From Naegleria gruberi (taxonomy: Eukaryota), in assembly GCA_000004985.1 (NCBI GenBank), contig GG738904.1: a DNA stretch of 64,000 nucleotides, one strand, 5' to 3'. A program made the position numbers and the translations under genes. How positions within the stretch are numbered: the stretch's first letter is position 1; each line of letters begins with the position of its first letter. This document shows, piece by piece, positions 2,686-32,448 of this stretch. The notes below the pieces were generated by a model. That model did no database searches. It was given only the letters and a program-made list of their open reading frames with translations, and was not told the origin of the DNA.

Positions 2686-3050
2686 ACCTGTCAGGTACCG
2701 TCACAGGTACTTGGCAGGTACGATTTTTACCATCACAGGTACCGTCACAGGTACTTGGCAGGTATCACAGGTACCATCAGGTACCATCAGGTACCATCAC
2801 AGGTACCGTCACAGGTGCAAATGGTACCTGACAAGTACAATCACAGGTACCGTCACAGGTATCTGAATTTCCTCACAGGTACCATCACAGGTACTTGGCA
2901 GGTATCACAGGTACCATCACAGGTACCATCACAGGTACCGTCACAAGTACTTGGACCATCACAAGTACCCTTACAAGGACTTGTAAGGTGCTCAACACGT
3001 ACCTACAGTGTCTGACAAGTATGGTACCTCACAATAACCATCACAGCTAC
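2686..3050. repeat. Minisatellite: ~30 degenerate tandem copies of a 12-nt unit (A/G)TCACAGGTACC
   Basis: Reading the sequence directly: atcacaggtacc, gtcacaggtac and ttggcaggta variants repeat head-to-tail across ~365 bp, with many GGTACC (KpnI) cores. It lies inside the P450 #1 insertion. Confidence 0.8.
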
Positions 3051-4299: not shown

Positions 4300-4590
4300 G
4301 ATGGATTATTCCTTTTTTTTCAAAAACAAAAGCTTTCACACAACCTCGAGTCGTGTGAAATGTCTCACACTCTAATATTTTAATATTTTTATAAGGCTTG
4401 AATATATATATATATATATTGAAAAGGGATTGACCGAAACTGGAAGACACATTAATTGGATATCTAAAGAGACCAAACAAATTTTCCTCAGAATTGAAGA
4501 GTCACGTCGCTACGTCCCTCAAGACATCCACACAACTTTGCAAATTAATACAATTGAGAAAAAAAAACTACTTTTATTTTCGACTCAACT

Positions 4591-9035: not shown

Positions 9036-9208
9036 TATATTGTAAATATTTTAACACAAAATGTAAAAACCAAATTATTAATAGTATTTAATATTGCTAT
9101 AAATTCAAAGTAGATTTCCTAATATTTCCAATTTTGAACATTCAACTGAACCGCCAAAACAAAATTTGAATCAAAAAAAACAAACAAATTACCACGTGTC
9201 AGACAAAG

Positions 9209-11332
9209 ATGACAGCAGCAACAGCAACGAGTAGTGGAAAGGATTTGCTTGTGCAATGCCTGGGACTTGTTGTCTTTTGTGTGGTGGGTGGTCTTTTCGT
9301 CTACTTTATTCCATCGGAACAATATGGAAAAGAGATGATGAACAAGATGACGAATCACGCAAAGATAAAAGATTTGATGAGTAGATTTACTTCTTTGGAA
9401 AGTAAAATAGTAAAGAAAGATAGAGAAACTATTCGAAATCTTTCACCTTCGTGTAAATTAGCACTTGTCGAGAATAGTTTAAAGACCAAACACGTTTCAC
9501 AATTCTTTTCAAGTATTCTACCAAGTGAAAAGTATGAGAAAATTGCCAACCAACTCTCGGAACAAGTTACAGATCAAACTTTTAACAAGTGTGAAAAACA
9601 AATTGATTTTACCAATTTAAAAATCAATTTGAATTTAGAAAAGTTGAAATCAAATCAAGAAATAGTTATTGATTTGAATTTTATGAAAAAGATGGAAGAA
9701 TTAAGTTTCCTTCAATCTTCATTACAACAAGAGCAACACAGTGGATCATGTTCTCAACGAGTGATTGAATCAATTTTAATTCAGAAAGAGTTGCACGATA
9801 TTTCAACACTTCATAATATTACAACACTCGATAAGGCAGTTAATTTTTATGGTCAATTGTGGCTTAGACAAGATTGTTCTGAATCTATTAGTACTATCAG
9901 CAAGTCGTCAGATTTGTTAAAGGAATATTCTCATTTGGTCAACCAACAGGATGTGGATAAGCTTTACCAATTATTGGATGTTGAACCATCTGATCATTTG
10001 AAACCTTTAGAACCAAGAGTGTTAAAATCAATTTTCCAAGAGCAAGAAAAGAAAATTGTAAATGCACAAATTGACAAGTTGGAAAAGCAAATTACTGAGC
10101 TGAAGAATACCATTGGTGAATTTGAAAATCAATCCAAAATCTTGTCTAGAACCATTTCAGAAAAGGAGAAGGAATACAAGATGTCCCTTGAAAAATCTCA
10201 AGCAGAAAATGACAAACTGCAAGTTTTAATAAGAGAAAAGCAAGTTTCCATCTCATCACTTGAATCCAAGCAAAAATCATTGACAGAAGAAGTGGTGAAT
10301 TATCAACGATCTGTATCTAATCTCAAAAGTGATTTGGAAAAGGAATTTGAGAAATATAAGGCTATCAATTTGAAGAATATTCAATTAGAAGATTCCAATA
10401 ACAAGCTCACTCAAAAATCAAAGGATTTTGAGAATGAAATCAAGAAGAAAATTCCTTCCCTTGAAGAAAATATTCAACTCTTGAATAAGGAAAAGACAAC
10501 AATGGAAAAACAAATTCAAGAACTCAAGAATTCAACCTACACCGATTTGATTTCTGGACGTGAAAAGCTTTTCAAGCAAGCTGAAGTATTACAACAAACT
10601 GGAAAGAATATTGACACTATTGGTGGCTTATTGAATCAATTCAATGAAACTCTTAAAGGAGACGAATCCCTTCGTGAAAGAATTGGACAACTCTTGGATA
10701 AATTAGAAAAACAACAAAAATCTCAAAAGGAATTGGAAGAAATAATGTCAAAATCCAAACATTTGGAAGTGGAAGGAAAGGAATGTTTCAGTGCTCTCAG
10801 CGTTTGTCGTGAAGAAAAGTCCAAACTCCTCAATGATAAGCAAGTTGAAAAGCTAGTTCTCAAAGTTTCTTCATTGGAAAAGAAAATTGAAGCCCTCAAT
10901 CAAGAAAAACAAGAATTAGTTTCCAAAGTTGGAGATTATTCGAATACCATCTCAGAAATTGAGCAGAAAAAGAATGAATCTATCGAAAGATCAGAAAACT
11001 TGTCGACCATTCTTGTGGATTTGAAATTAGAACATGTTGAAGAACAAAAACGAAACAAACTCACCATTGAAACTTTAGAACAAGAATTGAACGAAACAAG
11101 GCAATTACTCAATCAAACATCGACCCAACATTCAACAGAACATACTCAAAATGAACAATTACAAAACGAATTGACCAAAATTAAGGACCAATTTACCACT
11201 TGCCAAACCAGCAGTGAAACCATTCTCGAGGAAAATAGAAAACTTTTATTGGAATTGGAAGAAATTAAGAAGGACTTGGTTATTGCTCAATCTGCAAAGA
11301 TTGTTTCTGATTTGAAAGAGGAAGATAATTAA
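9209..11332 (+). CDS. Coiled-coil protein with N-terminal transmembrane helix (707 aa)
   Basis: The ORF is long with good codon usage. The N-terminus has a TM helix, LLVQCLGLVVFCVVGGLFVYFIPS. The rest is a heptad-rich K/E/Q/L coiled coil. Confidence 0.6.
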   Translation: MTAATATSSGKDLLVQCLGLVVFCVVGGLFVYFIPSEQYGKEMMNKMTNHAKIKDLMSRFTSLESKIVKKDRETIRNLSPSCKLALVENSLKTKHVSQFFSSILPSEKYEKIANQLSEQVTDQTFNKCEKQIDFTNLKINLNLEKLKSNQEIVIDLNFMKKMEELSFLQSSLQQEQHSGSCSQRVIESILIQKELHDISTLHNITTLDKAVNFYGQLWLRQDCSESISTISKSSDLLKEYSHLVNQQDVDKLYQLLDVEPSDHLKPLEPRVLKSIFQEQEKKIVNAQIDKLEKQITELKNTIGEFENQSKILSRTISEKEKEYKMSLEKSQAENDKLQVLIREKQVSISSLESKQKSLTEEVVNYQRSVSNLKSDLEKEFEKYKAINLKNIQLEDSNNKLTQKSKDFENEIKKKIPSLEENIQLLNKEKTTMEKQIQELKNSTYTDLISGREKLFKQAEVLQQTGKNIDTIGGLLNQFNETLKGDESLRERIGQLLDKLEKQQKSQKELEEIMSKSKHLEVEGKECFSALSVCREEKSKLLNDKQVEKLVLKVSSLEKKIEALNQEKQELVSKVGDYSNTISEIEQKKNESIERSENLSTILVDLKLEHVEEQKRNKLTIETLEQELNETRQLLNQTSTQHSTEHTQNEQLQNELTKIKDQFTTCQTSSETILEENRKLLLELEEIKKDLVIAQSAKIVSDLKEEDN

Positions 11333-12286: not shown

Positions 12287-12877
12287 ATGTCGAACACTCT
12301 CACCATTACTGAACCTGTTGTCTATAATTCGAAACAATTGAATGTTTTGAGAGAAATAGTATTAAAATTGAAGAAGGAAGATCCCTCTCAAACAAATATT
12401 GATTTTGGAGACAAGGAACAAGTTTCGAAAATGTTGAAAAACTATTCGAAAGAATGCCACTGTCCTATCTGTTTAGAAGGAGTATTAGAGGAAGGAGGAA
12501 ATCGAATCCTTGCCTGTAAACACTTCATACACGACAATTGCCTTGATCAACTAACAGAAATTCATGGAAAAAACACAAAATGTCCAATTTGTGTTCAACC
12601 TGTATTTCCAAAAAAGGAGAATAACAAGAAACAAGAACAGAAACTAGGTACTGTCTTTTTTACATCATCTTTTTTCTTAATTACTGGCACATGTATTGCG
12701 TATATTGTAAACACACTCAACCAACCAAATTTGGTTACTGAAATTGTCAATTCGTCCACTAGTTCACAAATTGTTGAATCTTGTGCAAACCTATCTTTGG
12801 ATATTGACTATAAATCGTTTACCGATTGTATTAAGCTTGATGGTTTTTCTGGTAATTGCTATTCAACTTTTTTGTAA
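12287..12877 (+). CDS. RING-H2 zinc-finger protein with C-terminal TM segment
   Basis: CPICLEGVLEEGGNRILACKHFIHDNCLDQLTEIHGKNTKCPICVQ is a C3H2C3 RING. It is followed by a hydrophobic helix, FFTSSFFLITGTCIAYIV. Confidence 0.65.
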   Translation: MSNTLTITEPVVYNSKQLNVLREIVLKLKKEDPSQTNIDFGDKEQVSKMLKNYSKECHCPICLEGVLEEGGNRILACKHFIHDNCLDQLTEIHGKNTKCPICVQPVFPKKENNKKQEQKLGTVFFTSSFFLITGTCIAYIVNTLNQPNLVTEIVNSSTSSQIVESCANLSLDIDYKSFTDCIKLDGFSGNCYSTFL

Positions 12878-13000
12878 AGTTACAAATAAAGAAAACGAAA
12901 GAAATTAAAAAAAACAAAAAATAAACTTTTTAAAAAATTGTTAACAAAATTGCGAATTTTATACAAATTTATTTTAATACAAACAACTACAGACAAGTTA

Positions 13001-20190: not shown

Positions 20191-22920
20191 ATGTTTTCAT
20201 CACTGAAAGAGTTCGAAAGTTCTCCTTTCTTCTCCTTTCCCTGCAACAGCCGTTTGAATTTCATCAAAATGATCTACTCTCTGCAAACTCATGTCAAAGT
20301 GTCAGAACCCAACAGAAAAAAATACATCAACATCATGACATTTTCATCATCTCCACAACAGCAGCTGATAAGAACACTTACAACAACAATATTCATACTA
20401 TTATTCATCACATCTTTCATCCATGCCAATGTCTATGACTTTTTACATAATGCCACTATCAAGACACAATCAACAATAACAAATTATAATTCCCTGAATG
20501 CGACTATTGTAAATATACCGATTGCTTATCAAGTTTATGTAAACAAATTGGCAAAACTTCAAACAGGATCATCAACATTTGAAGATGTCTCTGATTTTAT
20601 TGGTAGTTCATTGGATTTTCTGACATCTTCAACGAATCCTAGATGTGTCATTTCACAAGATTATGACACCTTTCCAAGTATTAACAAGTATAAGGAAACG
20701 TATAATACTATTGTGAAAAGCATGTCAAATGCCTCGGATGTTTGTAATAATCCTACTGTGATTAATACGGGATCGATACCTATTGAAACGGCTCACTATT
20801 CGTATATTATTAATCAAGTTTCTCCTAGTGTGGTTATTTCTACATTAGATTCGTATGAAAAATGGTTGAATATTTTGAGAAATTCTATGGTTTCGAAGAA
20901 TACGAGACTTTCACTTTGGAATGCAACATTTAGTGATGCATTCAAGACACAACCAGTGCATAATGCACCATTTTCTTTTGATTTTGTTCCTTATTCAAAT
21001 TGGAGTAAACTCTACACAGATAGTACAATGAGAAAGGAGCTGATATCATATCTTCAGGAGGATATAGTGACGGATATGGCCTTGTTTAAGTTATTCTATT
21101 CTACACATTTGAAAAATAATGGAACTGGACTTGCTTATTCACCAATTAGTAGTAAGAGTGTAAATTGTGGCTCAATATTTACCAATTCTACACTCAGATA
21201 TCAATATCATGCAGCCATTATGAGGATTAATGCTCGATTGGCCTATTTTCTTACCAAAGCACCAACTGGATCGAGTAGAAATGTTTCTACAGTATTTAAC
21301 TTGGCACTATTCAATGCCAAAACATATTTTGATGATTCAGTTGTTTCCATTGATTATAGTTTCAATTTTGAAGCAACTAGAAGAATGTTATTCAATGGAA
21401 TATTTGATGACTTTCTTTCTCTATTCATCAAAAATCCTTCCAGCAAATATTTGACATTTACCTCATCTGATTTGCAAGATGTCTATGCTTACTTTGTTCA
21501 TCCAGCATGTTTCACTTACTATTATACCTACAGCCAATTGTATCTCAGCACAACAGACTCTACTTCACCAATAATAGCCAATGATGCCATTTACATTACA
21601 ATTGCGAGTGTTGGATTTTTAATTTTCATGACTAATTTATTTGCCTACTTTTTAGGATTTAAAATCATGACCAAGAAGAGACTCTTCTTACCATTGTCTG
21701 CTCCTCCATTCCTATTTACATTGTGCATTTTCTTTGTGTATGGAGTCAAGTCGAATATTCCAACTGAATCTTATTGGGTTCAAATGGCTTTGGCATTCTT
21801 CCCTGCTCCATTATTTATTGCCTCATATTTAGTTTCAGTTTCCAGATTTACCTATTTGAAGAATATTGAAAAGTGCACCAAGTATTGTTGCAAATCTTTG
21901 AGATTTCACAGATGCATGACCTCTAGAGGAATTTCCATATTTGCTGCATTATTTTTGACTATATTCCTCTTCATTGTTTGTGGCATTCCAATCCTGATTG
22001 TTTTAGTTGCTCTTGTCTTTTCATTTGTCAATTTCCCAACTGAAATTGTTATTTTAATGATTGCTATCCAGACAATTTTATTGCTTTTCATAGCAACTTT
22101 ATTCTTTATATTTGATTTGGCCTCCTCTGGTATCAATACAATCAAAAAGAAGGGTCTCTCCTATTATTTGGCTTTTGACGATCCATTCATGTATAGAACA
22201 GATCTCTTCTTGATGTTTATCATGTTTCTCTCGGCCATTCCTTTCATAACAGGTGCCATTCAGGATTCTTTCGATTTCTTTGTTTTGAGAAAGATTGCCT
22301 CCATCATTTATTTCCTTTGTTTCTATCTAGTTTTGGGAGGAAGTGTTTCTTTGAAATTCTGGTTTGATACCCTTTCAAAACTTGTAAGAAAGAAAACAGA
22401 TATTACTCATGACTTGCAAAAGTACATGAATGTGGAATCATTCAGAGAAATGTTCAAATCATATTGTGAAAATGAATTTTCAAGTGAAAATTATCTTTTA
22501 TATGAGGAATTGGAAAAATTACAACAGAAAGGAAAAGTCTATGAGGATGATCTTGTCAGAATTAATACATTGTACTTGGCCAATCGTGCTCAATATGAAG
22601 TCAATTTGCCATCTGTCACCAAGAGAAAGTTTAGAGAGTTATTGGAAGATTTTGACATTACTGCTTTTGAAGGAGGAAGTATTGAATCAGATTCTTCCAT
22701 TCCACTCTCAGATACATCAGGTTCCTCCTCTCAAGCACTAGTTTCCAGTCAACCAAAAAAGAAGAAATGCATCACTGTTCAACAATTGAAAGATGTTTTA
22801 GCATTTGAAGTTGTCAAAAACATGGTCGACACTTACAGTAGATTGGAATTGACTTCTGAATTTAACAAATGGAAAGAATTGAATGATTTTAAAGCAGAAC
22901 AAATGGGAGTCGATGTTTAA
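20191..22920 (+). CDS. Multi-pass membrane protein with C-terminal RGS domain
   Basis: The likely start is MTFSS at ~20335, with a signal peptide. An ~450-aa ectodomain is followed by ~7 hydrophobic helices and a C-terminal RGS domain, SFREMFKSYCENEFSSENYLLYEELEKL...YLANRAQYEVNL. Confidence 0.6.
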   Translation: MFSSLKEFESSPFFSFPCNSRLNFIKMIYSLQTHVKVSEPNRKKYINIMTFSSSPQQQLIRTLTTTIFILLFITSFIHANVYDFLHNATIKTQSTITNYNSLNATIVNIPIAYQVYVNKLAKLQTGSSTFEDVSDFIGSSLDFLTSSTNPRCVISQDYDTFPSINKYKETYNTIVKSMSNASDVCNNPTVINTGSIPIETAHYSYIINQVSPSVVISTLDSYEKWLNILRNSMVSKNTRLSLWNATFSDAFKTQPVHNAPFSFDFVPYSNWSKLYTDSTMRKELISYLQEDIVTDMALFKLFYSTHLKNNGTGLAYSPISSKSVNCGSIFTNSTLRYQYHAAIMRINARLAYFLTKAPTGSSRNVSTVFNLALFNAKTYFDDSVVSIDYSFNFEATRRMLFNGIFDDFLSLFIKNPSSKYLTFTSSDLQDVYAYFVHPACFTYYYTYSQLYLSTTDSTSPIIANDAIYITIASVGFLIFMTNLFAYFLGFKIMTKKRLFLPLSAPPFLFTLCIFFVYGVKSNIPTESYWVQMALAFFPAPLFIASYLVSVSRFTYLKNIEKCTKYCCKSLRFHRCMTSRGISIFAALFLTIFLFIVCGIPILIVLVALVFSFVNFPTEIVILMIAIQTILLLFIATLFFIFDLASSGINTIKKKGLSYYLAFDDPFMYRTDLFLMFIMFLSAIPFITGAIQDSFDFFVLRKIASIIYFLCFYLVLGGSVSLKFWFDTLSKLVRKKTDITHDLQKYMNVESFREMFKSYCENEFSSENYLLYEELEKLQQKGKVYEDDLVRINTLYLANRAQYEVNLPSVTKRKFRELLEDFDITAFEGGSIESDSSIPLSDTSGSSSQALVSSQPKKKKCITVQQLKDVLAFEVVKNMVDTYSRLELTSEFNKWKELNDFKAEQMGVDV

Positions 22921-23238
22921 TCCTCAATCTTTCAATAAAAAGTTTGACAAATTTCAAAATATTTAAATATTTGAATAAGTTCATAGATTCGAATTTCGGC
23001 AACATCATCTCGTACACAAAATCTCTCACTATTGCAAAGCACGATCGCTCAAAAAACCAAATAACCACAGCGCCAAAGCATCCTTATTTGGAAAAACTAA
23101 TATCCGTCATCGCACGCTCACCATTTCGGGGAATATATTACAGAGAAAGAATCGACCAACAAATAATTGAAATAAATTCCTCACCTTCTCCAAGGAGAAA
23201 TTCCCAACAATTTGAAAAAAAACAAAGAAAACATCGTC

Positions 23239-24928
23239 ATGGCTTTAAGCGAAATTATTTTGGGAATTGTTTGCGTTTTTGCTGCAATTCTTCTCTTCTT
23301 CCTCATTTCAATTTATAATAATTATAAGAAAGTGAGTCACATTCCAGGTGCTTTCCAATTCTTCTTGACTTTTAAGAATATTCCAATCATTTCACCTTAT
23401 TTGAGTTTCGATGGACACAAGAGAATGGAACAATTGGTCAAAACTCACGGAGATCCAAAAACTGGACTTGTCAGATTATCCATGTTCGATAGAAATATGG
23501 TTGTAGTTTCAGATAGAGACATGTTGAAGGAATTGTTGGTCGTTAAGGGTGGAATTTTCATCAAATCTTGGAAATTATATGAAGTTTTCAATGCTTTCGG
23601 CAAGAATATCTTATCAATTCTCGATGGTACCAGTGATTCATGGAAAAATCATCACAAAGTAGCTTCAGGTGCTTTTGCTTCTAAAAATTTGGAATACATG
23701 TCAAGAGTTGCCTCAAAATCTTTGGATTTGTGTAAGGAAAGTAAATGGGATGGTGAAATGGAAAAGGCATTGAAGGAAGGAAAGGAAGGTATTATTATTG
23801 ATACCAATGCTGATTTTAGTGATATTACTTTGGGTAAGTTTCGAATTTTGACATTGTCATGTTGACCTTTCGAATAATAGACGTTCTTGGTAAGGCTGCT
23901 TTCGGTTTGGACTTTTCCATCTTTGATGAAACTAACCCAGAAGGTAGAATTTTCAGAAAATCCCTCGAAAAGATGTTTACCACTGGTGTAATCTTAAAAC
24001 GTTTCGTCGGATTAAATCCAGTCCTTTCCTGGGCTTTCCCATGGGCTTGCAAATATACTGGTTTAGATAAGGCAGTAAAAGTTGTGAGTGATAAGTTGGA
24101 TGCAATCATTGCGGAAAGAACTCGTGAAGTAGAATTGCGTGGAATGGAAGATGGAAACACATCCGAAACTGGTGTTGAAGAAAGAAAGGATTTGTTGAGT
24201 GTTTTGGTTGAAGCCAATTTCATTCAAAAGGGAATCTTGTCAGGTGATGAACTCAAATCTGACGCTTATATCTTTTCGCTTGCTGGGTATGTATTCGAAT
24301 TTTAAACTATTTGTCCTAATTTATTTTCATAGACATGAGGTTCGTATTTGCAAATTTACAATTTTTTGTAATGATTTTTTTATTTGAAATTTTAGACAAC
24401 TTCAACAACTTTACAATGGGTTTGTTACGAATTATCAACAAAACCAGATATTCAAAATAAGATTCGTGAAGAGATTGATTTACATCTCGGAAAGGGTGTA
24501 AATGCCAGAGCTCCAAACTTTGACGATTATCCAATTATGAACTATGTCAATGCTGTCATTATGGAAACTGCAAATAGAAGTGATCGAAACTGGGATAAAC
24601 CTTTAGAATTCATTCCAGAAAGATATCCAATGAATGCTGAAGAACAATTGAGAATTCAACATGATTTCACTTGGATTCCATTCTCTATGGGTAATCGTAA
24701 ATGCATTGTAAGTACTTTTTGAAAATTTCACAAGTTTACAAAATTTTTCAGGGTTTCAAGTTTGCTCAAATTGAAGCTTTTACAATTCTTGTAAGATTAC
24801 TTCAATTCTATGAATTAGGATTGGATAATGATGAATCTAATCCAAAGGATCAAATTGTTGATGTTCCTGGCGTTACAGTTCGTCCAGGAAATTGTAGAAT
24901 TATTCTCAAACCAAGAAAGGATCTTTAA
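23239..24928 (+). CDS. Cytochrome P450 #2 (paralog of #1), 5 exons including a 7-nt micro-exon
   Basis: The exons are 23239-23833, 23881-24286, 24333-24339 (ACATGAG encoding (G)HE of AGHETT), 24396-24707 and 24752-24928. The donors are GTAAGT/GTATGT/GTTCGT and the introns are 44-56 nt, with consistent phases. The protein has ...DVLGKAAFGLDF...FSLAGHETTSTTLQWVCYEL...PFSMGNRKCIGFKFAQIEAF. Confidence 0.8.
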
Positions 24929-25509
24929 TTTCGAATACAATTTTGTAAATAGTAAAAATAAATAAAATAATTTAATTCATAATATTGTTGATGATACAGT
25001 GGAGGTTGAAAATGCAATTACAAGTTGTGGTTGTTTGAAAATTTATGGAGCTTGTCAGAGGGTAAATACTGACATGTACAGTTGACAAGATCTTGAGTAA
25101 TAATGAAGATCTTTTGGAGTTTAGAATCAATTTTGTTAACACTTACAATTGGATGTTTCTCATCCTCTTCGATCTGAGCTTTACAGCAAGTAATATTTCC
25201 AAAAATAGCTATTGTTTGCAATGTTAAAAAAATTAATGAGACACATTTTCGATATTTTGTTTAAAATTACCTCAAATGCAAGGTGGAAAAACAAAATTAT
25301 TTCTTTTAAGGTCTAAGTGTTTCATAATATGTCTGTTGCCAACAACCTGCCAATCCACTACAAATTAAATCTGCACAGCTTTTGAAAATAACATTTTGCG
25401 TCTAAACCACACGCCCCAACAAAAAAAATGCAACAAACAAGAATGCTTCACTCATCACCCAACCATTCCCACAACACCAACAACAAAAAAATCACAATAT
25501 TAATTCATC

Positions 25510-26389
25510 ATGAGCAAAGGTATAAACAAATCATCAGTAAGTAACCATATAAACAAGTACTCTAATAATTATAAAAGAACACTAAGAAGAAAACTAACAC
25601 CAAGACAACTGTGAAGAAAACCAACACCAAGAACACTGTGAAGAATACCAATACCAAGAACACTGTGAAGAACACTGTGAAGAACACCAATAAGAAGAAT
25701 ACCATCAAAAAGAAGAATCCAAAGCGTAAGTGTTATTGTTATTTATTAATTTACTAACATTGTTAATAGTTGCTCGGGAAGTTGTCAATTACACAACTGT
25801 GAATGCCAAATGGTTCCTTTATGCTCCAACCACCACCGAAAGTGGTTTCAAAGCTACATTTATTCCAGTCAGTGGTCCATTTAACAGAGTTGAAGAAATG
25901 AAACGAGTTGCTTGTTTGCAAATGTTTTGTGAAAGTTGTGCTATAACTTTGGGTTTTTATTTGGATCCAAGTATGTTCAAAAGATTTCAAACTGGTATTC
26001 GTATTGCATCATTGAAACCTGAATGGTTCTCTCATTATTTCGAGTCATGTGGTGGAAAAATGAAAAACAGAGTTCAATATATTCGTTACAATGGTCACAG
26101 TTTGAGTATTACTTGTCCTTCTTATGAATTCTATGGTTTGGAAAATATGCCACCTTTGAATTGTAATGGTAGTTATGCAAGCACGGTTTTTCAAGTTTCC
26201 CAACCAATATTGATGAACCATCCATTTCAACCACACTTTAAATGGATTGAACAGTGGAAATTTGTTTACAGATTGTATTTCTCTAAACTCGTATTTATAT
26301 GCAATCCAGTAACGAATATGGTTTCAGTAGATTTGGAATTTACAAAGGATGTACAAAGTATGGATTGTACTGGTTTCCAAATTGTTTAA
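25510..26389 (+). CDS. Hypothetical protein with N-terminal K/N/T-rich tandem-repeat region, 3 exons
   Basis: Exon 1 is 25510-25536 (MSKGINKSS). A 41-nt GTAAGT intron follows. Exon 2 is 25578-25725 and encodes (NTVKNT)n repeats from a 21-nt DNA tandem repeat, aacactgtgaagaa(c/t)accaa. A 44-nt intron with a ttTACTAACat branch site follows. Exon 3 is 25770-26389 and has no recognised domain. Confidence 0.5.
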
Positions 26390-26399
26390 TAAATAATTT

Positions 26400-26879
26400 T
26401 TATTCATTAAAATCAATTAATGACAAGTCACATTCTTCTCGTTTCAATTTCAAGAATAGCACATTATTGAACTTGAATGGATTTTCTGCTAAATTGTCTG
26501 TTGTATCAACATGAACAAATAAAGACTTGAAGGCTCTATTTTCTGCATACAAAATTGAATTTAAAGAGTAAAGTTTTAATCTTCGGGTTGCAGAGGGTAA
26601 ATCAAATACTTCACGTAGAATTTTCAAATATTTAGTATCTGTAAATTCTACAACACCTTCATCCTCATCAATTCCATAATCAATCAAAGTTCTTTTTAAT
26701 TCATCCATTAGAGCTCTTGGATTAACAATAGATGGTTTCATAACACAATTCGGAATATACAGATGATCATAAAATTGATCATCTGTAATTTCTTCTCCTT
26801 CACAACAAATCATAACTACGGGCAATTCGTAAATGGTGTTATAAATAGGAATTATATTGGCTTCAGCAACACGAGGCAT
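26400..26879 (-). CDS. Hypothetical protein (160 aa; the extended N-terminus in the ORF track is translation of the upstream repeat)
   Basis: The likely start is MPRVAEANIIPIYNT. The ORF track extends it through the 78-bp repeat, which is probably 5'UTR or promoter. Confidence 0.4.
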   Translation of the reverse strand: MPRVAEANIIPIYNTIYELPVVMICCEGEEITDDQFYDHLYIPNCVMKPSIVNPRALMDELKRTLIDYGIDEDEGVVEFTDTKYLKILREVFDLPSATRRLKLYSLNSILYAENRAFKSLFVHVDTTDNLAENPFKFNNVLFLKLKREECDLSLIDFNE

Positions 26880-26890
26880 TTTGTCAGTTA

Positions 26891-26968
26891 AAATATTTGA
26901 TCGTCGATTCCCCGTGCCAGTGTTGTGGTAGTAAAAGTGATTCCGTAATCGACTCTCAAAAAAACTGA
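26891..26968. repeat. Direct repeat copy 1 (~78 bp), immediately 5' of the H3-variant ATG
   Basis: aaaatatttgatcgtcgattccccgtgccagtgttgtggtagtaaaagtgattccgtaatcgactctcaaaaa matches 30545-30622 with 4 mismatches. It contains an internal inverted repeat, gtcgattcc...(g)gaatcgac. Confidence 0.7.
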
Positions 26969-26971
26969 AAA

Positions 26972-27532
26972 ATGACTCAAACTTCTTCATCAACAGCAGA
27001 AACATCTACAGAAACCTCGGAAGTTCCAAACAACACATCAACCAAAACACCATCAACAACACCATCAAAAACACTATCAAAAACATCAACCAAAACACCA
27101 TCAAAAACATCAACCAAAACACCATCAAAAACACCAAGAAAAACACCAAGAAAAACACCAAAAAAAACACCAGCAAAGAAATCTGCAAAAAAACCATTCA
27201 CAGGAGGAATTAAAAAGCCACACAGATATAGACCAGGTACTGTAGCTTTAAGAGAAATCCGAAAGTATCAAAAAAGCACTGAATTATTGATAAAAAAAAA
27301 ACCTTTTTGTAGGTTGGTGAGAGAAGTTGCTCAAGATTACAAATCTGATGTTAGATTTCAAGCGAATTCACTCCTTGCACTTCAAGAAGCAGCTGAGGCA
27401 TTTATTATTGATATTTTTGAGGATACTAATCTTTGTGCCATTCACTCCAAAAGAGTTACTATTTTGCTCAAAGATATGCAACTTGCATTAAGAGTAAAAG
27501 GTGTTAATTATATTGGTTTATTAAATAAATAA
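26972..27532 (+). CDS. Histone H3 variant with extended repetitive N-terminal tail
   Basis: The histone fold [94 protein letters not shown] is near-identical in layout to canonical H3. The N-tail is replaced by (K)[22 protein letters not shown] repeats. The gene has no intron. Confidence 0.8.
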
Positions 27533-27565
27533 TATTAATCATCATCATTTAATATCTTTAAAAAA

Positions 27566-27749
27566 ATGTCTTGTACTTTAGAAGATATTTTTCAAGACAC
27601 ACAATTCAAAAAGTTCAACGATAAAGGAAAACCGTATTGTGAAGGAGTTGTACATTTAAAACAAGAAGACTTATACAAATTTTTAGGAATAAAAGAAGTT
27701 AAAAAGAAAAGGATATTAGAAACCTCCGAATTAAATCGATGTAAAAATG
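27566..27749 (+). CDS. SAM-domain-like N-terminal ORF running into the assembly gap (partial)
   Basis: MSCTLEDIFQDTQFKKFNDKGKPYCEGVVHLKQEDLYKFLGIKEVKKKRIL shows the SAM pattern L..DL..LGI....R..IL. The ORF continues as X because of the N run. Confidence 0.4.
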
Positions 27750-28919
27750 NNNNNNNNNNNNNNNNNNNNNNNNNNNNNNNNNNNNNNNNNNNNNNNNNNN
27801 NNNNNNNNNNNNNNNNNNNNNNNNNNNNNNNNNNNNNNNNNNNNNNNNNNNNNNNNNNNNNNNNNNNNNNNNNNNNNNNNNNNNNNNNNNNNNNNNNNNN
27901 NNNNNNNNNNNNNNNNNNNNNNNNNNNNNNNNNNNNNNNNNNNNNNNNNNNNNNNNNNNNNNNNNNNNNNNNNNNNNNNNNNNNNNNNNNNNNNNNNNNN
28001 NNNNNNNNNNNNNNNNNNNNNNNNNNNNNNNNNNNNNNNNNNNNNNNNNNNNNNNNNNNNNNNNNNNNNNNNNNNNNNNNNNNNNNNNNNNNNNNNNNNN
28101 NNNNNNNNNNNNNNNNNNNNNNNNNNNNNNNNNNNNNNNNNNNNNNNNNNNNNNNNNNNNNNNNNNNNNNNNNNNNNNNNNNNNNNNNNNNNNNNNNNNN
28201 NNNNNNNNNNNNNNNNNNNNNNNNNNNNNNNNNNNNNNNNNNNNNNNNNNNNNNNNNNNNNNNNNNNNNNNNNNNNNNNNNNNNNNNNNNNNNNNNNNNN
28301 NNNNNNNNNNNNNNNNNNNNNNNNNNNNNNNNNNNNNNNNNNNNNNNNNNNNNNNNNNNNNNNNNNNNNNNNNNNNNNNNNNNNNNNNNNNNNNNNNNNN
28401 NNNNNNNNNNNNNNNNNNNNNNNNNNNNNNNNNNNNNNNNNNNNNNNNNNNNNNNNNNNNNNNNNNNNNNNNNNNNNNNNNNNNNNNNNNNNNNNNNNNN
28501 NNNNNNNNNNNNNNNNNNNNNNNNNNNNNNNNNNNNNNNNNNNNNNNNNNNNNNNNNNNNNNNNNNNNNNNNNNNNNNNNNNNNNNNNNNNNNNNNNNNN
28601 NNNNNNNNNNNNNNNNNNNNNNNNNNNNNNNNNNNNNNNNNNNNNNNNNNNNNNNNNNNNNNNNNNNNNNNNNNNNNNNNNNNNNNNNNNNNNNNNNNNN
28701 NNNNNNNNNNNNNNNNNNNNNNNNNNNNNNNNNNNNNNNNNNNNNNNNNNNNNNNNNNNNNNNNNNNNNNNNNNNNNNNNNNNNNNNNNNNNNNNNNNNN
28801 NNNNNNNNNNNNNNNNNNNNNNNNNNNNNNNNNNNNNNNNNNNNNNNNNNNNNNNNNNNNNNNNNNNNNNNNNNNNNNNNNNNNNNNNNNNNNNNNNNNN
28901 NNNNNNNNNNNNNNNNNNN
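27750..28919. other. Assembly gap (N run, ~1170 nt)
   Basis: A continuous run of n. ORF-track proteins made of X (27566..28951, 27592..28938, front of 27747..30545) are artefacts of the gap. Confidence 0.95.
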
Positions 28920-30545
28920 TTACATACTGTTCACACAAGAAAACAGAATGATAAAGTATGTGTAGATAAATTACCAGAAAAAGTAATGATTAAATTGTCA
29001 ATGGATGGTAGAGAATTTGGAAATTTACGAACAGTTGTAGTTACTTTGAATATTTTAAATTTACATTTATTCGGAACACAAGAAAGAGACTGTGTTTTCC
29101 CAATTCTAATGTATATAGGTGAAGAGAAAGATATTATTAATTATATAACTGAAATTGAAAAAGAAGTTATTGAACTTTCTACCAAACATATTACTATCAA
29201 AGAAAACGAGCATGATGCTACACTATCACTTGAAAATACAACCCAAACAATTCCATTAGAATTCTATTGGGTGAGTGATTTAAAATCACTTGAATATTGT
29301 TCATTATTGAAAGAACATGCTATGTTTTGTCCTTTCTGCAACATTAAGAAACAAAATTCATTGTCTGGGATTTGTTCTGAAAATAGTAGAAATTTACAAC
29401 ACAAAATGGGTGTTAAATCATCCAATATTTTCATATGCATTTTGCATATGGATGAACGAATTACTGAATATATTTTGAAAATGACCTTAAAAACTTCGGA
29501 ACTTGAAAAGCAAATGAAAACCAATATTTGTTCATTAGAAGGTTTTGCTGATTTTAATTTTCATTCATCAAGTGTTTTAGTGAAAGATACAATCGAAGAA
29601 GAAAATGCTCTCACAGTTAAGGAATATTCATTTATGTTATCTGGCGGGCATTGTAATAAGCTTTTTGGATCTTTTGATAAAGTTTTTGGATTTTTGAAAG
29701 ATTCAAACTCAAATATGTATAATATTTGGAAAAAATACAAATCAATTAGACAGTGGTTGTATTATACAAATGAAGATTTGGAAAAGAAATCATTAAAGGA
29801 TTGGGAAAATTTTGATTCTGAGTTAAATGAATGGAGATTGCTTTTTGTTCTACAAAAAGCTGATAGTGGAAGAATAGGAGATTACATTCATATTGCCACT
29901 GCACATCTTTATGACTTGCTTTCAACTTATGGAAGTCTGGTTCCTCTTTCAAATCAAGGTGTAGAAAGTTCTCATCAATTAGATTGTTTGATTATGGAAA
30001 GAGGGACAAGTAAGGGTAAAATGTCTATTGGTACCAAAAAAGCTCAAGCTGGCTCCTCAAAACCAAACGTGGAAACTGTATCCAAACCTGCTTCCCATAC
30101 TCTTGAGTCTAGTGATCTTGATAATGAGCAAGAACATAAGGAATTTAATTATGAATCATTTATTAAGAAGACAGAATCTTGTGACTGGAATGATTTATTC
30201 CAAGTTTGTCAAATCATGCTGAAGAAACTTAGAAAGTTGTATTTATCTTTTACTTGTGAAGAAGTACTATTTGTCCGGTTAGAAAGAAGGACTGGTAAGG
30301 TAATAAGAAAAGATTGGACAAGAGACATTTTAACTATGTCTCCCAACTTTACTCTGCCTATCCGAAAACCAACCAATGTTCTCATTCAAAAACCAGATAA
30401 CATTAACACTGAAGTGATATCTCCACAGCTTGCTCCATCCCAAGATGTTCCTAAAAGAACAGTTGAACTCAAACAATCCCAGGAATATGGATTGGTTGTG
30501 AATGGTGATGATGATGGGTTGATGAATGATGATGTCTTCTATTAA
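28920..30545 (+). CDS. Large uncharacterised ORF emerging from the gap (C-terminal ~540 aa), possibly the same gene as the SAM ORF
   Basis: The ORF is open from the gap edge: ...IKLSMDGREFGNLRTVVVTLNILN...CVFPILMYIGEEKD...FCPFC...ICILHMDE.... It has a C/H cluster but no confidently recognised domain, and an acidic tail. It is flanked by the 78-bp direct repeats. Confidence 0.45.
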   Translation, partial: LHTVHTRKQNDKVCVDKLPEKVMIKLSMDGREFGNLRTVVVTLNILNLHLFGTQERDCVFPILMYIGEEKDIINYITEIEKEVIELSTKHITIKENEHDATLSLENTTQTIPLEFYWVSDLKSLEYCSLLKEHAMFCPFCNIKKQNSLSGICSENSRNLQHKMGVKSSNIFICILHMDERITEYILKMTLKTSELEKQMKTNICSLEGFADFNFHSSSVLVKDTIEEENALTVKEYSFMLSGGHCNKLFGSFDKVFGFLKDSNSNMYNIWKKYKSIRQWLYYTNEDLEKKSLKDWENFDSELNEWRLLFVLQKADSGRIGDYIHIATAHLYDLLSTYGSLVPLSNQGVESSHQLDCLIMERGTSKGKMSIGTKKAQAGSSKPNVETVSKPASHTLESSDLDNEQEHKEFNYESFIKKTESCDWNDLFQVCQIMLKKLRKLYLSFTCEEVLFVRLERRTGKVIRKDWTRDILTMSPNFTLPIRKPTNVLIQKPDNINTEVISPQLAPSQDVPKRTVELKQSQEYGLVVNGDDDGLMNDDVFY

Positions 30546-30622
30546 AAATATTTGATCGTCGATTCCCCGTGCCAGTGTTGTGGTAGTCAAAGCGATTCCG
30601 GAATCGACTTTCAAAAATTCAA
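30545..30622. repeat. Direct repeat copy 2 (~78 bp), immediately 3' of the large 28920-30545 ORF
   Basis: The same element as copy 1. It is also followed within 10 bp by an ATG, here opening only a 21-codon ORF. Confidence 0.7.
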
Positions 30623-31038
30623 TAAAATGTGCCATCAAATAAAATTTTATCAAAGGCCTTTATTGTTAGAAATAATAATTATTATTTAAATATTAAACAT
30701 TGTTACTTCATATAATCAAATTAAAAGCATGTTAAATGTTTAATATATAACAAATAATAACTGTAATAATCGGAATTGTAAAATTCTGGAAGATTTTAAA
30801 CAGTAGTGGTTTTAATTGGTTCAAAAAGTGGCAAAAAAAAATTTGGCGCAAAGAGCGGTCGACAATTTGTCGAGTCTTGCTGAATGGTTATTTTCAACTC
30901 TAGATTTGTAGTGTGAAAAGCAAACATTCAATTTCAAAATCTCTTTTACCCGAATGGCCTTTTGCGGTTAGAGCTCGTTATCACGCACTTGCTCAAGAAT
31001 CATTTTGAAAAAAAAACTTTACGAAACTTGCCTAAACC

Positions 31039-32448
31039 ATGAACGAAACAGAATGCAAGGATTGCGTCTCGGATAACCACAGCAAAGTTTCCAGCGCAAG
31101 CACATCCAACCTTTCCAACATTACCACAACCTCTGTAGGCTCTCTAGAATTATTCGAAACCATGATTGTCCAACCGATTGGCCATTCGATTCTTCAACTT
31201 TCGTCCAAACACAAAATTCTCATCATTTCCATTAAATGGTTTGGTTGTCCAATGTGCCAAAAATTAATCGACAATCTCGATGAATACCTCCCTTCTTTAC
31301 TAATGCTCAACATTATTCCTGTCATTTGCCATCAAGAAGACGAAACCAAATTTGGAAAGCACATTTCACATACGAAACTGTTTCATTGTAAAATTTCAAC
31401 ACAAGCCAAGAGGATGCTGTTGATTGACAAGGCAAGTGTTGTAAAGCACATGAAAGCCATGCCAACGATTTTGAAATTACTTGTCAAGGAAAAGAGAAAA
31501 TTATTTTTGCCTTCGCTGTCAGAAATCAAAGATATGGAGCTGGTGTCAACTTTTGGGATGCATATTGTGAGGAATGGACAAGTGGAGACTAGTTATTTTT
31601 ATAAGAATTTGTTGGATAGACCTGATTTGGGTCAGTTTGTGTTTAATCTTTCGAATAGAAAAGAAGAAACGATTCAGGAAGAAGGAGATGATAAGGAAAT
31701 GGTAATTTCGTATAAGAAGAGTGAAATTGAAGAAGTGGAGCAGTTTTTACCTAATCTTATCAAGCTATACCCAGATTTGAAGAAAGTTTTTTCATCAATT
31801 CGGCAAAAACGAGTTCAATTACCTTCTAGTGAACTTTCGAATAATTTACAAATAGGTCAGCCAACCTCCTCCACACCAACCTCACCTACCCTTCAAGTTC
31901 CACAGCCAGCTAACGGCGGTAGACCTTCCACATCATCAGTTGGCTCATCCTCTTCCTCAATTTCCACATCTTACATTAGCATGTCAAATGTCCTCGAAAA
32001 TGCCACAATGAGAACTTATTTCAAAGCTCACTTGAGTAACATGTACAGTTTGGAATTGGTTTTATTCCTCGAACAGGTGAATATTTACAAATTCCTTGTC
32101 AAGTCATTGAAATCTCAATCAACTTGTCAAAATTTACTTTCGTCTGAAGAGCAAATTCTTCAGGACATTAGTTTGCCAGCATCTGAAATGGTAACAACTA
32201 TCCCAGAGTATGAAACTAAAGCTAGATATATTGTGGAAACATTTTTGAATGATGAAGCCATGTTTCACATTAACACGAGTCGAAAGTTGACAGATAGAAT
32301 GAAAACCCTAATTGAAGAGAAGGGTTTTATTGAGGAATTATTTGATGAGATTGAAATGGATGTGAAAACTTCCATGTTAGTTTATTTATTTGCATCGTTT
32401 AGACAAACTACATTGTTTACTGAAATGATGCAACGATTTAAAAAGTAA
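31039..32448 (+). CDS. Protein with N-terminal CxxC (thioredoxin-like?) region, S/P-rich linker and C-terminal RGS-like domain
   Basis: WFGCPMCQ is a CxxC motif. The central tract is SSTPTSPTLQVPQP...SSSSISTS. The C-terminus, TYFKAHLSNMYSLELVLFLEQVNIYKF, fits the RGS consensus F..FL..E.S.ENL.F...VE.YK. Confidence 0.5.
   Translation: MNETECKDCVSDNHSKVSSASTSNLSNITTTSVGSLELFETMIVQPIGHSILQLSSKHKILIISIKWFGCPMCQKLIDNLDEYLPSLLMLNIIPVICHQEDETKFGKHISHTKLFHCKISTQAKRMLLIDKASVVKHMKAMPTILKLLVKEKRKLFLPSLSEIKDMELVSTFGMHIVRNGQVETSYFYKNLLDRPDLGQFVFNLSNRKEETIQEEGDDKEMVISYKKSEIEEVEQFLPNLIKLYPDLKKVFSSIRQKRVQLPSSELSNNLQIGQPTSSTPTSPTLQVPQPANGGRPSTSSVGSSSSSISTSYISMSNVLENATMRTYFKAHLSNMYSLELVLFLEQVNIYKFLVKSLKSQSTCQNLLSSEEQILQDISLPASEMVTTIPEYETKARYIVETFLNDEAMFHINTSRKLTDRMKTLIEEKGFIEELFDEIEMDVKTSMLVYLFASFRQTTLFTEMMQRFKK

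What the first reader, a model, noticed from the sequence alone, without database searches (positions are those of the whole stretch)
27566..30545. SAM-domain start and ~540-aa C-terminal ORF of unknown family spanning the gap
Before the gap there is a clear SAM-like module. After it runs a long ORF with no domain I can name, a C/H cluster (FCPFC...ICILHMDE) and a segment IKLSMDGREFGNLRTVVVTLNILN, which loosely recalls the first-Asp region of some DDE-type transposases, followed by an acidic tail. Its 3' end abuts direct-repeat copy 2. Together with the repeats, this is the best candidate in the window for an uncharacterised element-encoded protein. The resemblance to transposases is weak, and I may be over-reading it.
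Basis: inference. Interest (0 to 1): 0.5.

Follow-up and report, generated by a model that had tools for sequence, protein, structure and literature searches.

The report
RAG1-like transposase gene in Naegleria
The unnamed 541-residue ORF is the intact catalytic core of a RAG1/Transib-type DNA-cutting enzyme in the amoeba Naegleria gruberi, always paired with the same small partner gene in related amoebae: a protist cousin of the enzyme family behind vertebrate V(D)J recombination.

Summary

The SAM-like start is not supported. The 85-nt repeats are not terminal inverted repeats. They are two copies of a palindromic cassette, one between the divergent gene Y and the H3-variant gene, the other just after the T stop. 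Two relatives show the same layout.

T always follows a small gene X (nine loci). In three Naegleria-type loci the block is X-Y-H3v-T. The block's neighbours differ between species, and it is absent from the syntenic N. fowleri site. No TIRs were found. I cannot decide between a host-retained recombinase and a low-copy two-gene transposon, and lean slightly to the former.

The parts
25510..26389 (+). Gene X: a partner gene of about 215 aa and unknown fold. The main exon is 25730-26389. A short basic first exon and a GTAAGT intron lie around 25510-25760; those exon-1 limits are approximate.
   Evidence: It is homologous to the gene directly upstream of T, on the same strand, in all eight other loci (L001-L008). 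It has no Pfam or PDB match. dN/dS is 0.32 between L006 and L002.
26400..26879 (-). Gene Y: a small protein of about 159 aa, transcribed divergently from the H3 variant. The ORF extends to 27005, but the likely start is the ATG at 26879-26877.
   Evidence: It is conserved in L004 (1031-1456, minus strand; tblastn E 1.4e-14) and in N. lovaniensis L008 (start near 9483). It has no Pfam family.
26890..26974 (.). Palindromic cassette, copy 1 (the 85-nt direct repeat). The arms are AATCGACGATCAAA (26896-26909, minus) and AATCGACTCTCAAA (26947-26960, plus). The cassette fills the Y/H3v divergent intergenic region.
   Evidence: The motif AATCGACNNTCAAA has exactly four perfect hits in 64 kb, and all four are cassette arms.
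26972..27532 (+). H3v: a histone H3 variant (186 aa). It has a TPSK-repeat N-terminal tail and lacks the canonical ARTKQT tail.
   Evidence: Pfam Histone E 4e-37. A homologous gene sits directly upstream of T in L004 and L008. The best PDB matches are canonical H3, not CENP-A.
27566..27749 (+). Probable first 61 codons of T (pre-gap). This assignment rests on position only.
   Evidence: The start-codon context and the distance from the H3v stop match the T starts in L004 and L008.
27750..28919 (.). Assembly gap (1170 N). It hides roughly 390 residues of T, the N-terminal DNA-binding part.
   Evidence: The length is consistent with the homologs.
28920..30545 (+). T: the C-terminal 541 aa of a RAG1/Transib-superfamily transposase homolog. 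It comprises an RNase-H-like catalytic domain with an interleaved zinc module, a helical C-terminal domain and a disordered acidic tail. Key codons: D29 29004-29006, E69 29124-29126, D120 29277-29279, C137 29328-29330, C140 29337-29339, C173 29436-29438, H176 29445-29447, H324 29889-29891, H329 29904-29906, E349 29964-29966.
30545..30629 (.). Palindromic cassette, copy 2, immediately after the T stop codon. The arms are at 30551-30564 (minus) and 30602-30615 (plus). No gene starts at it.
   Evidence: An equivalent post-T palindrome is found in L004 (5157-5218), L008 (about 12826-12897), L006 (about 4383-4400) and L002 (about 3626-3643).

Best explanation
T is a member of the RAG1/Transib (CMCT-clade) superfamily of DDE transposases. 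The 541 residues after the gap form an RNase-H-like catalytic domain. The acidic triad is D29, D120 and E349. A zinc module made of C137-x2-C140 and H324-x4-H329 is threaded between the second Asp and the Glu, as in RAG1 (D600/D708/E962; C727/C730/H937/H942). These points are shown.

The mechanism is inferred from that family. The protein binds specific DNA sites through the N-terminal part hidden in the gap, nicks DNA with two metal ions, and most likely resolves the nick by transesterification, as RAG and Transib do.

The gene is not solitary. In every locus examined it lies directly downstream of the small gene X, which evolves in parallel with it. In the Naegleria-type loci, a divergent pair (Y and a histone H3 variant) sits between X and T. 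A palindromic cassette then occurs both at the Y/H3v promoter and just after the T stop. These points are also shown.

My reading of its status is an inference, at roughly 55:45. I think it is a transposon-derived recombinase module retained by the host: one close copy on record for N. gruberi, no TIRs, and both genes under purifying selection. I think this slightly more likely than a currently proliferating transposon. X would be its obligatory partner, and the cassette arms are candidate binding or regulatory sites.
For: Identity and homologs:
- The post-gap ORF is 100% identical to N. gruberi NAEGRDRAFT_73321. Only five close relatives appear in a 5.8-billion-protein index.
- An exhaustive profile search finds 220 relatives.

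Active-site signature:
- In the 45-sequence alignment, D120, C137 and H176 are invariant. D29, Q54, E69, C140, C173, L175, R180, Y322, H324, H329 and E349 are conserved in at least 90% of members. The window protein keeps all of them.

Sequence-profile evidence:
- Against all PDB sequences, the 17 best hits are exclusively RAG1L (E 6.6e-7), RAG1 (about 1e-5) and HzTransib (2.4e-3).
- hhalign against verified mouse RAG1 gives 89% probability, E 2e-6. It aligns H324=H937, H329=H942 and E349=E962.
- The N-terminal half on its own ranks HzTransib first. It aligns colinearly to RAG1 with E69=E662, D120=D708, C137=C727 and C140=C730.

Structure:
- The AF2 model has pLDDT 77.7 and pTM 0.75, with residues 20-360 mostly above 90.
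- Foldseek ranks 1-39 are all RAG1, with E down to 1e-9.

Module:
- X lies upstream of T in nine loci. The X and T identity matrices run in parallel.
- dN/dS is 0.22 for T and 0.32 for X.

Lean towards host retention:
- Only one close copy from N. gruberi is on record.
- No inverted repeats above shuffle level flank the block in seven loci.
- The H3v and Y genes are conserved inside the block in three species.
Against: - The window protein itself hits neither Pfam RAG1 nor any PDB chain. The link needs a profile or a predicted structure.
- AlphaFold was trained on RAG1 structures, so the closer match to RAG1 than to HzTransib may partly reflect training.
- D29=D600 rests on the fold alignment and on invariance, not on a printed residue alignment.
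- About 390 N-terminal residues are missing in the gap, so the intactness of the N. gruberi gene is unproven.

Against the host-retention lean:
- The block has unrelated neighbours in N. gruberi, N. lovaniensis and W. magna. It is absent within 10 kb of the syntenic RGS gene in N. fowleri.
- W. magna carries two unlinked X-T pairs, one of them truncated.
- The wider family behaves like repeats. Two N. gruberi paralogs at least 90% identical lie on different scaffolds. One metagenomic cluster has 26 members on many short contigs. Some members carry Ulp1-protease fusions.
- Short TIRs (under about 15 bp) would escape my search.
Confidence: 0.7

Rival explanations
1. X-T (with Y and H3v as cargo in Naegleria) is an autonomous, still mobile low-copy DNA transposon of a new CMCT lineage. 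T is the transposase and X an accessory DNA-binding or regulatory protein, like TnpA beside TnpD in CACTA elements. Its short termini have simply not been recognised.
For: - The block has different neighbours in every species. It is absent at the N. fowleri site that is syntenic with the window's downstream flank.
- W. magna has two unlinked X-T pairs, one truncated after residue 603.
- Even a distant relative (L007; T only 25-29% identical) has an X-like gene upstream (hhalign P 3e-4).
- The catalytic residues are intact everywhere.
- Relatives are multi-copy.
- Conserved non-coding islands sit upstream of X and after T.
Against: - No inverted repeats above shuffle level lie between the 1.5 kb upstream of X and the 1.5 kb downstream of T, in seven loci.
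- There is no consistent CAC...GTG or heptamer-spacer-nonamer pattern.
- Only one close copy from N. gruberi is on record.
- Long-term carriage of a well-conserved histone H3 variant and its divergent partner inside a 5-kb DNA transposon would be unusual.
- Local rearrangement is frequent between N. gruberi and N. fowleri anyway (an inversion and a relocation within 20 kb). Lost synteny is therefore weak evidence for transposition.
Confidence: 0.35
2. The H3v-T unit bounded by the two cassette copies is itself the mobile or excisable unit. The 85-nt direct repeats, or their inverted arms, would serve as recombination sites.
For: - Cassette arms flank exactly H3v+T in inverted orientation in the window (26947-26960 plus, 30551-30564 minus).
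- L004 has 14-nt perfect arms in the same layout: TCGACACCCTAAAA ... TTTTAGGGTGTCGA.
- A post-T palindrome is also conserved in L008, L006 and L002.
- The arms are unique to this locus within the 64-kb window.
Against: - Loci without H3v (L002, L006) show only the post-T copy, so the sites are not always paired.
- Copy 1 is also simply the Y/H3v divergent promoter region, with each arm a few bases from an ATG.
- The arms do not resemble CMCT termini.
- No circular or empty form was observed.
Confidence: 0.1
3. T is a decaying relic or mis-assembled pseudogene with no present function. The pre-gap and post-gap ORFs may be unrelated pieces.
For: - The gene is interrupted by a 1170-N gap, and the flanking frames differ if the gap length is taken literally.
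- The pre-gap 61 aa show no similarity to the homolog N-termini.
- One W. magna copy is truncated, and the L002 copy carries a frame break.
Against: - The frame is open for 541 codons in a 33% GC genome.
- All 14 signature residues are retained.
- Intact orthologs of 900-1070 aa exist in at least six other loci.
- dN/dS is 0.22.
- A relative is present in a Pharyngomonas transcriptome.
Confidence: 0.05

Closest known systems
RAG1 and the RAG1-like transposase of ProtoRAG (BbRAG1L)
   Different: Identity is only 12-16%. Full-length homologs show no RING or N-terminal zinc-finger domain by Pfam. The partner X is about 215 aa with no detectable kelch or PHD domain, so it is not shown to be RAG2-like. 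X lies upstream on the same strand. No RSS-like ends were found. The host is a heterolobosean amoeba, not an animal.
Transib transposons (e.g. Helicoverpa zea HzTransib, PDB 6pqn)
   Different: Transib elements are single-ORF with CACWRTG-type TIRs and 5-bp TSDs, and are reported almost only from animals (PMC4411706; bioRxiv 10.1101/2021.09.26.461848). Here there is a two-gene unit, no TIRs were found, and TSDs cannot be tested.
CMC superfamily (CACTA/EnSpm, Mirage, Chapaev) and the newer CMCT lineages (Plavaka, ESTA, Lanisha)
   Same: [quoted passage not shown] CACTA elements also encode two proteins. One family member weakly hits Pfam Transposase_21, and three hit DUF1280.
   Different: The window protein and nearly all relatives fail the Pfam Transposase_21 model. 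There are no CACTA-type termini. No phylogeny against Repbase families could be run, so the lineage within CMCT is unassigned.
Catalytically active domesticated transposases (the concept; examples from my own knowledge: Kat1 and alpha3 of Kluyveromyces lactis, PiggyMac of ciliates)
   Same: Only one close copy is on record. The catalytic residues are retained. The protein is under purifying selection. It has been conserved across genera without recognisable transposon ends.
   Different: No host process (programmed rearrangement, switching) is known or shown here. Chromosomal position is not conserved between species.

Membership tests
RAG1/Transib superfamily (CMCT clade) transposase core | RNase-H-like catalytic fold superimposable on RAG1 | tested here: met
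RAG1/Transib superfamily (CMCT clade) transposase core | D, D, E catalytic triad conserved at the corresponding positions | tested here: met
   D29, D120 and E349 are invariant or at least 90% conserved in 45 sequences. D120=D708 and E349=E962 in hhalign alignments to verified mouse RAG1. D29=D600 is inferred from fold and strand position only.
RAG1/Transib superfamily (CMCT clade) transposase core | [quoted passage not shown] | tested here: met
   FCPFC (C137, C140) and HIATAH (H324, H329) are read directly from the sequence. They align to RAG1 C727/C730 and H937/H942. The motif definition is from PMC12730594.
RAG1/Transib superfamily (CMCT clade) transposase core | Statistically significant sequence similarity to known members | tested here: met
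   With a 45-sequence profile: RAG1L E 6.6e-7, RAG1 about 1e-5, HzTransib 2.4e-3, and no other family among the top 17. hhalign E 2e-6. Not met with the single sequence or the 5-sequence profile.
Pfam RAG1 (PF12940) | Score above the curated gathering threshold | tested here: not met
   The window protein has no hit at E<=1. Only 1 of 45 relatives hits, at E 5e-5.
Transib transposon (element level) | Terminal inverted repeats with CAC... termini resembling RSS heptamer and nonamer | tested here: not met
   No inverted repeat above shuffle level flanks X..T in seven loci. The RSS-like pattern scan gave nothing consistent. Short TIRs cannot be excluded.
Transib transposon (element level) | 5-bp target-site duplications | not testable with these tools
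   Element boundaries are unknown. The near-identical N. gruberi paralog loci could not be fetched.
Transposable element in general | Multiple dispersed copies in one genome | tested here: inconclusive
   For this lineage, one close copy from N. gruberi is on record and W. magna has two (one truncated). Distant paralogs in N. gruberi include two copies at least 90% identical on different scaffolds. No whole-genome DNA search was possible.
Domesticated (host-retained) transposase | Orthologs at conserved chromosomal positions in related species | tested here: not met
   Micro-synteny (X, Y, H3v) is conserved, but the flanking genes differ in N. lovaniensis and W. magna. The block is absent near the syntenic N. 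fowleri RGS gene.
Domesticated (host-retained) transposase | Purifying selection on an intact ORF without transposon ends | tested here: met
   dN/dS is 0.22 between L006 and L002. ORFs are intact in at least six loci. No TIRs were found. A vertically persisting transposon could also meet this feature.
SAM domain (for the pre-gap 61 aa) | Match to a SAM-family profile | tested here: not met
   No Pfam family at E<=1 for the 61 residues. None at E<=0.01 in the full-length homologs. The domain would be cut by the gap, so this does not strictly exclude it.
RAG2-like partner (for gene X) | Kelch beta-propeller and/or PHD finger | tested here: not met
   Four X homologs have no Pfam family. The X profile has no PDB hit at E<=10.

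The most novel reading that the evidence does not exclude
The X-Y-H3v-T block is a domesticated RAG1-like recombination system in a free-living amoeba. T would be a catalytically active recombinase working with its partner X. It would be genetically tied to a dedicated histone H3 variant, and the conserved palindromic cassettes on either side of H3v-T would be its recognition sites. It would carry out a programmed DNA cleavage, excision or rearrangement. This would be an independent taming of a RAG1/Transib-type enzyme outside animals.
Probability: 0.1. Interest if true: 0.85.

Novelty: new variant of a known kind. Interest (0 to 1): 0.55.

Why it matters
RAG1 is the textbook case of a transposase turned into a host enzyme. 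Its known relatives (Transib, ProtoRAG/RAGL) come almost entirely from animals, and a broad screen recovered only 35 Transib transposases.

Here a family with the complete RAG1-type active site and zinc module turns up in Heterolobosea (Naegleria, Willaertia, Pharyngomonas), in an amoebozoan, and in many environmental eukaryotes. No Pfam model covers it, and the records are annotated as hypothetical proteins. The N. gruberi model is truncated by an assembly gap and lacks two catalytic Asp residues.

One lineage is under purifying selection, with a single close copy on record for N. gruberi, and is always coupled to a partner gene. This gives a tractable protist system (N. gruberi is culturable) for asking two questions. 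How do RAG1-like enzymes work with accessory subunits? Has this chemistry been domesticated more than once? At a minimum it adds a new lineage and host range to the CMCT clade, and it corrects an annotation.

Tried and rejected
1. Single-sequence and 5-sequence-profile searches of Pfam and PDB found nothing relevant.
2. The first AF2 run, with 5 sequences, was unusable (pLDDT 34.7).
3. The search for homologous proteins with the 45-sequence alignment returned only close relatives, because of the candidate cap.
4. The afdb50 fold library was unavailable.
5. The TIR search found no inverted repeats above shuffle level between the flanks of X..T in seven loci.
6. CACAGTG/CACTGTG heptamers and heptamer-12/23-nonamer patterns gave nothing consistent. 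The CACTGTG cluster at 25634-25673 is a coding 27-nt repeat in exon 1 of X.
7. I tested whether the cassette motif is a general Naegleria promoter element and rejected this. Its only exact hits in 64 kb are the four cassette arms.
8. The Rfam scan of 25000-31500 found no RNA family.
9. SAM domain and homology of the pre-gap peptide to homolog N-termini: neither is supported.
10. H3v as CenH3: not supported by its best matches, which are canonical H3. It does lack the canonical tail and the alpha-1 glutamine.
11. X against Pfam and PDB: no match.
12. Loci of the near-identical N. gruberi paralogs P0021 and P0156 could have given element ends and TSDs, but they are not on record.
13. Literature searches for Transib, Chapaev or EnSpm in Naegleria found no prior report.
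Full report
WHAT IS THERE

The window is Naegleria gruberi. The C-terminal 379 residues of the post-gap frame are 100% identical to NAEGRDRAFT_73321. An N-run occupies 27750-28919. Before it, an ATG at 27566 opens 61 codons. After it, one frame stays open for 541 codons, from 28920 to the TAA at 30543-30545. The only long dispersed repeat in the window is an 85-nt pair at 26890-26974 and 30545-30629, 89% identical. The second copy begins on the last base of the stop codon. The public gene model starts at Met163 of the fragment, so it lacks two of the three catalytic residues described below.

WHAT THE PROTEIN IS

Pfam and the PDB give nothing for the single sequence or for a profile of its five closest relatives. 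An exhaustive profile search found 220 relatives. In an alignment of 45 of them (17-49% identical to the window protein), fourteen positions are invariant or nearly so: D29, Q54, E69, D120, C137, C140, C173, L175, H176, R180, Y322, H324, H329, E349. The window protein has all of them.

A profile of this alignment hits only RAG1-family chains at the top of the PDB list. These are amphioxus RAG1L (E 6.6e-7), zebrafish and mouse RAG1 (about 1e-5) and the Helicoverpa Transib transposase (2.4e-3, covering the whole core).

hhalign of the family profile against it gives 89% probability and E 2e-6. It aligns H324=H937, H329=H942 and E349=E962. The N-terminal half alone is not significant against the single RAG1 sequence (P 0.038). 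It is colinear, however, with E69=E662, D120=D708, C137=C727 and C140=C730. Against the PDB, its top hit is HzTransib with the same residues matched.

The roles of RAG1 D600/D708/E962 (catalytic) and C727/C730/H937/H942 (zinc ligands) are established knowledge of that enzyme. [quoted passage not shown]

In the model, D29 lies on the first strand, D120 at the end of the fourth strand, and E349 on a helix. This is the RNase-H arrangement.

Two caveats apply. AlphaFold was trained on RAG1 structures, so 'closer to RAG1 than to Transib' should not be over-read. D29=D600 is inferred from fold and conservation, not from a printed alignment.

THE N-TERMINUS AND THE SAM CLAIM

The 61 pre-gap residues hit no Pfam family at E<=1. 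The full-length homologs hit no SAM family. The peptide is not significantly similar to the poorly conserved N-termini of the homologs. That it is the start of T rests on position. It begins 33 nt after the upstream histone gene, in the AAAAAATG context seen at the T start in the other loci. The implied length fits the 900-1070-aa homologs.

THE GENE NEIGHBOURHOOD

I fetched eight related loci:
- W. magna, two loci (L001, L003);
- N. lovaniensis (L008);
- five metagenomic contigs (L002, L004-L007).

In all of them, T is directly preceded on the same strand by a homolog of the window ORF 25730-26389, which I call X. For the distant L007 the X relationship is only suggestive (hhalign P 3e-4). 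X has host-style introns and a basic N-terminus. It has no Pfam or PDB match. The pairwise identity matrices of X and T run in parallel.

Three loci have two further genes between X and T: the window, L004 and N. lovaniensis. One is Y, a small protein on the minus strand. The other is a histone H3 variant, H3v.

H3v is 63% identical to canonical H3 in the fold, but it lacks the canonical tail and the alpha-1 glutamine. Its best PDB matches are canonical H3, not CENP-A.

THE REPEATS

The 85-nt repeat is a palindromic cassette. Its two arms, AATCGAC-NN-TCAAA, face each other about 40 nt apart. Copy 1 fills the space between the Y and H3v start codons. Copy 2 follows the T stop and starts no gene. 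The motif's only exact matches in 64 kb are these four arms.

L004 has the same layout with 14-nt perfect arms at both places, but unrelated spacers. N. lovaniensis, L006 and L002 keep a palindrome after T. The cassette is therefore a conserved, locus-specific element. It is not a transposon TIR pair in any simple sense, and its role (regulatory or recognition site) is open.

MOBILE OR TAMED?

Evidence for mobility:
- tblastx of 44 kb of the window against all loci matches only X, Y, H3v and T. The neighbours in N. lovaniensis and W. magna are unrelated.
- The N. fowleri locus of the downstream RGS gene is syntenic with the window's downstream side over four genes, yet lacks the block within 10 kb.
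- W. magna has two unlinked pairs, one truncated after residue 603.
- Distant paralogs include two N. gruberi copies at least 90% identical on different scaffolds.
- One metagenomic cluster has 26 members on many short contigs.
- Some members carry Ulp1-protease fusions.

Evidence for host retention:
- Only one close copy from N. gruberi is on record.
- ORFs are intact in at least six loci.
- dN/dS is 0.22 for T and 0.32 for X between L006 and L002.
- A conserved histone gene pair lies inside the block.
- No inverted repeats above shuffle level, and no RSS-like pattern, lie around X..T.
- The same N. fowleri comparison shows an inversion and a relocation within 20 kb. Lost synteny is therefore weak evidence for transposition.

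I lean about 55:45 to a host-retained, transposon-derived recombinase module, and keep an active low-copy two-gene transposon as the main rival.

COMPARISON AND NOVELTY

At the level of the catalytic core, the protein is a member of the RAG1/Transib (CMCT) superfamily. The fold, triad, zinc motifs and profile similarity were all tested and met. It is not a member of Pfam RAG1. It cannot be filed as a Transib element, because TIRs were not found and TSDs are untestable.

It differs from all described lineages in three ways: its obligatory upstream partner X, its link to an H3 variant in Naegleria, and its host range. Named members come from Naegleria, Willaertia and Pharyngomonas among the Heterolobosea, and from the amoebozoan Planoprotostelium.

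Full-text searches found no report of Transib, Chapaev or EnSpm relatives in Naegleria. Published surveys describe Transib as rare and animal-centred. I rate it a new variant of a known kind, of moderate interest. It would rank much higher if the module proves to be a domesticated, active recombinase.

Noticed in passing
window 26972-27532 (+); L004 1528-1914; L008 9563-9997: A histone H3 variant gene sits directly upstream of T in three Naegleria-type loci. Its long TPSK-repeat tail comes from 12-nt tandem repeats at 26984-27223. The fold is 59-63% identical to canonical H3 and to the other variants. The canonical ARTKQT tail is absent, and the alpha-1 glutamine is replaced by C, R or G. Best PDB matches are canonical H3, not CENP-A. 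The gene is unannotated in the N. lovaniensis locus.
   Followed up: partly
window 26400-26879 (-); L004 1031-1456 (-); L008 about 9065-9483 (-): Small gene Y (about 140-160 aa) is transcribed divergently from the H3 variant and conserved in three loci. It has no Pfam family and its function is unknown. A role related to the histone variant is conceivable but untested.
   Followed up: partly
window 28920-30545 versus NCBI model NAEGRDRAFT_73321: The public protein model (379 aa) starts at Met163 of the post-gap frame, because of the assembly gap. It therefore lacks D29, D120 and the CxxC motif, which helps explain why the gene stayed a 'predicted protein'.
   Followed up: yes
L010 9258-9270 (N. 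fowleri, intergenic upstream of the RGS ortholog): GGAATCGACTTCC closely resembles the right arm of the window's cassette copy 2 (GGAATCGACTTTC, about 425 nt upstream of the N. gruberi RGS start). It could be a footprint, a shared promoter element of the RGS gene, or chance.
   Followed up: no
L001 13216-13233 and 13279-13295 (W. magna, about 500 nt after the T stop): Two small hairpins are built from the RSS-heptamer pair: CACTGTG-ATGG-CACAGTG and TCACTGTG-ACA-CACAGTGA. They are the only such heptamers in the 22.7-kb locus, and no equivalent occurs in the other loci.
   Followed up: no
window 25600-25700: A 27-nt tandem repeat contains CACTGTG three times (25634, 25661, 25673). It lies in the basic first exon of X and encodes TKNTVKN repeats, so the heptamer resemblance is probably coincidental.
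   Followed up: partly
window 20191-22920 (+), 23212-24305 (+) and 31039-32448 (+): RGS-domain genes lie on both sides of the block (909 aa upstream, 469 aa downstream), with cytochrome P450 exons just upstream of X. N. fowleri also has two adjacent RGS genes at the syntenic site (L010 7124-8647 and 10001-11308).
   Followed up: partly
window 2687-2938: A degenerate tandem array is built on CACAGGTACC(A/G)T units (six copies of a 68-nt register). It is unrelated to the finding.
   Followed up: no
N. gruberi proteins P0020 (NAEGRDRAFT_82344), P0021 (NAEGRDRAFT_76258), P0156 (NAEGRDRAFT_70118): These are distant paralogs of T elsewhere in the N. gruberi genome, about 24-25% identical with the full catalytic signature. 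Two of them are at least 90% identical to each other on different scaffolds, which suggests a recently active sister family. Their loci could not be fetched.
   Followed up: partly
L002 about 2206-2254; L003 12249 onward: The L002 copy of T is split into two ORFs by a frame break near the CILHMDE motif. The second W. magna copy loses homology after residue 603 and runs into AT-rich low-complexity DNA. So some copies of this lineage are damaged.
   Followed up: partly
L010 279-3256 (N. fowleri): Reverse-transcriptase and RNase H genes, probably a retroelement, lie about 7 kb upstream of the RGS ortholog, near the synteny break.
   Followed up: no
window about 25400-25510; L004 about 200-296; L005 about 160-261; L007 about 90-199: The region upstream of X shares A-rich and ACA-rich islands across loci whose proteins are only 35-50% identical (for example AAAAAAAATG[A/C]AA..ACAC and ACAACAATCAAAAA). 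It may be a promoter or leader, or a terminal region of the unit. This was judged by eye only.
   Followed up: no
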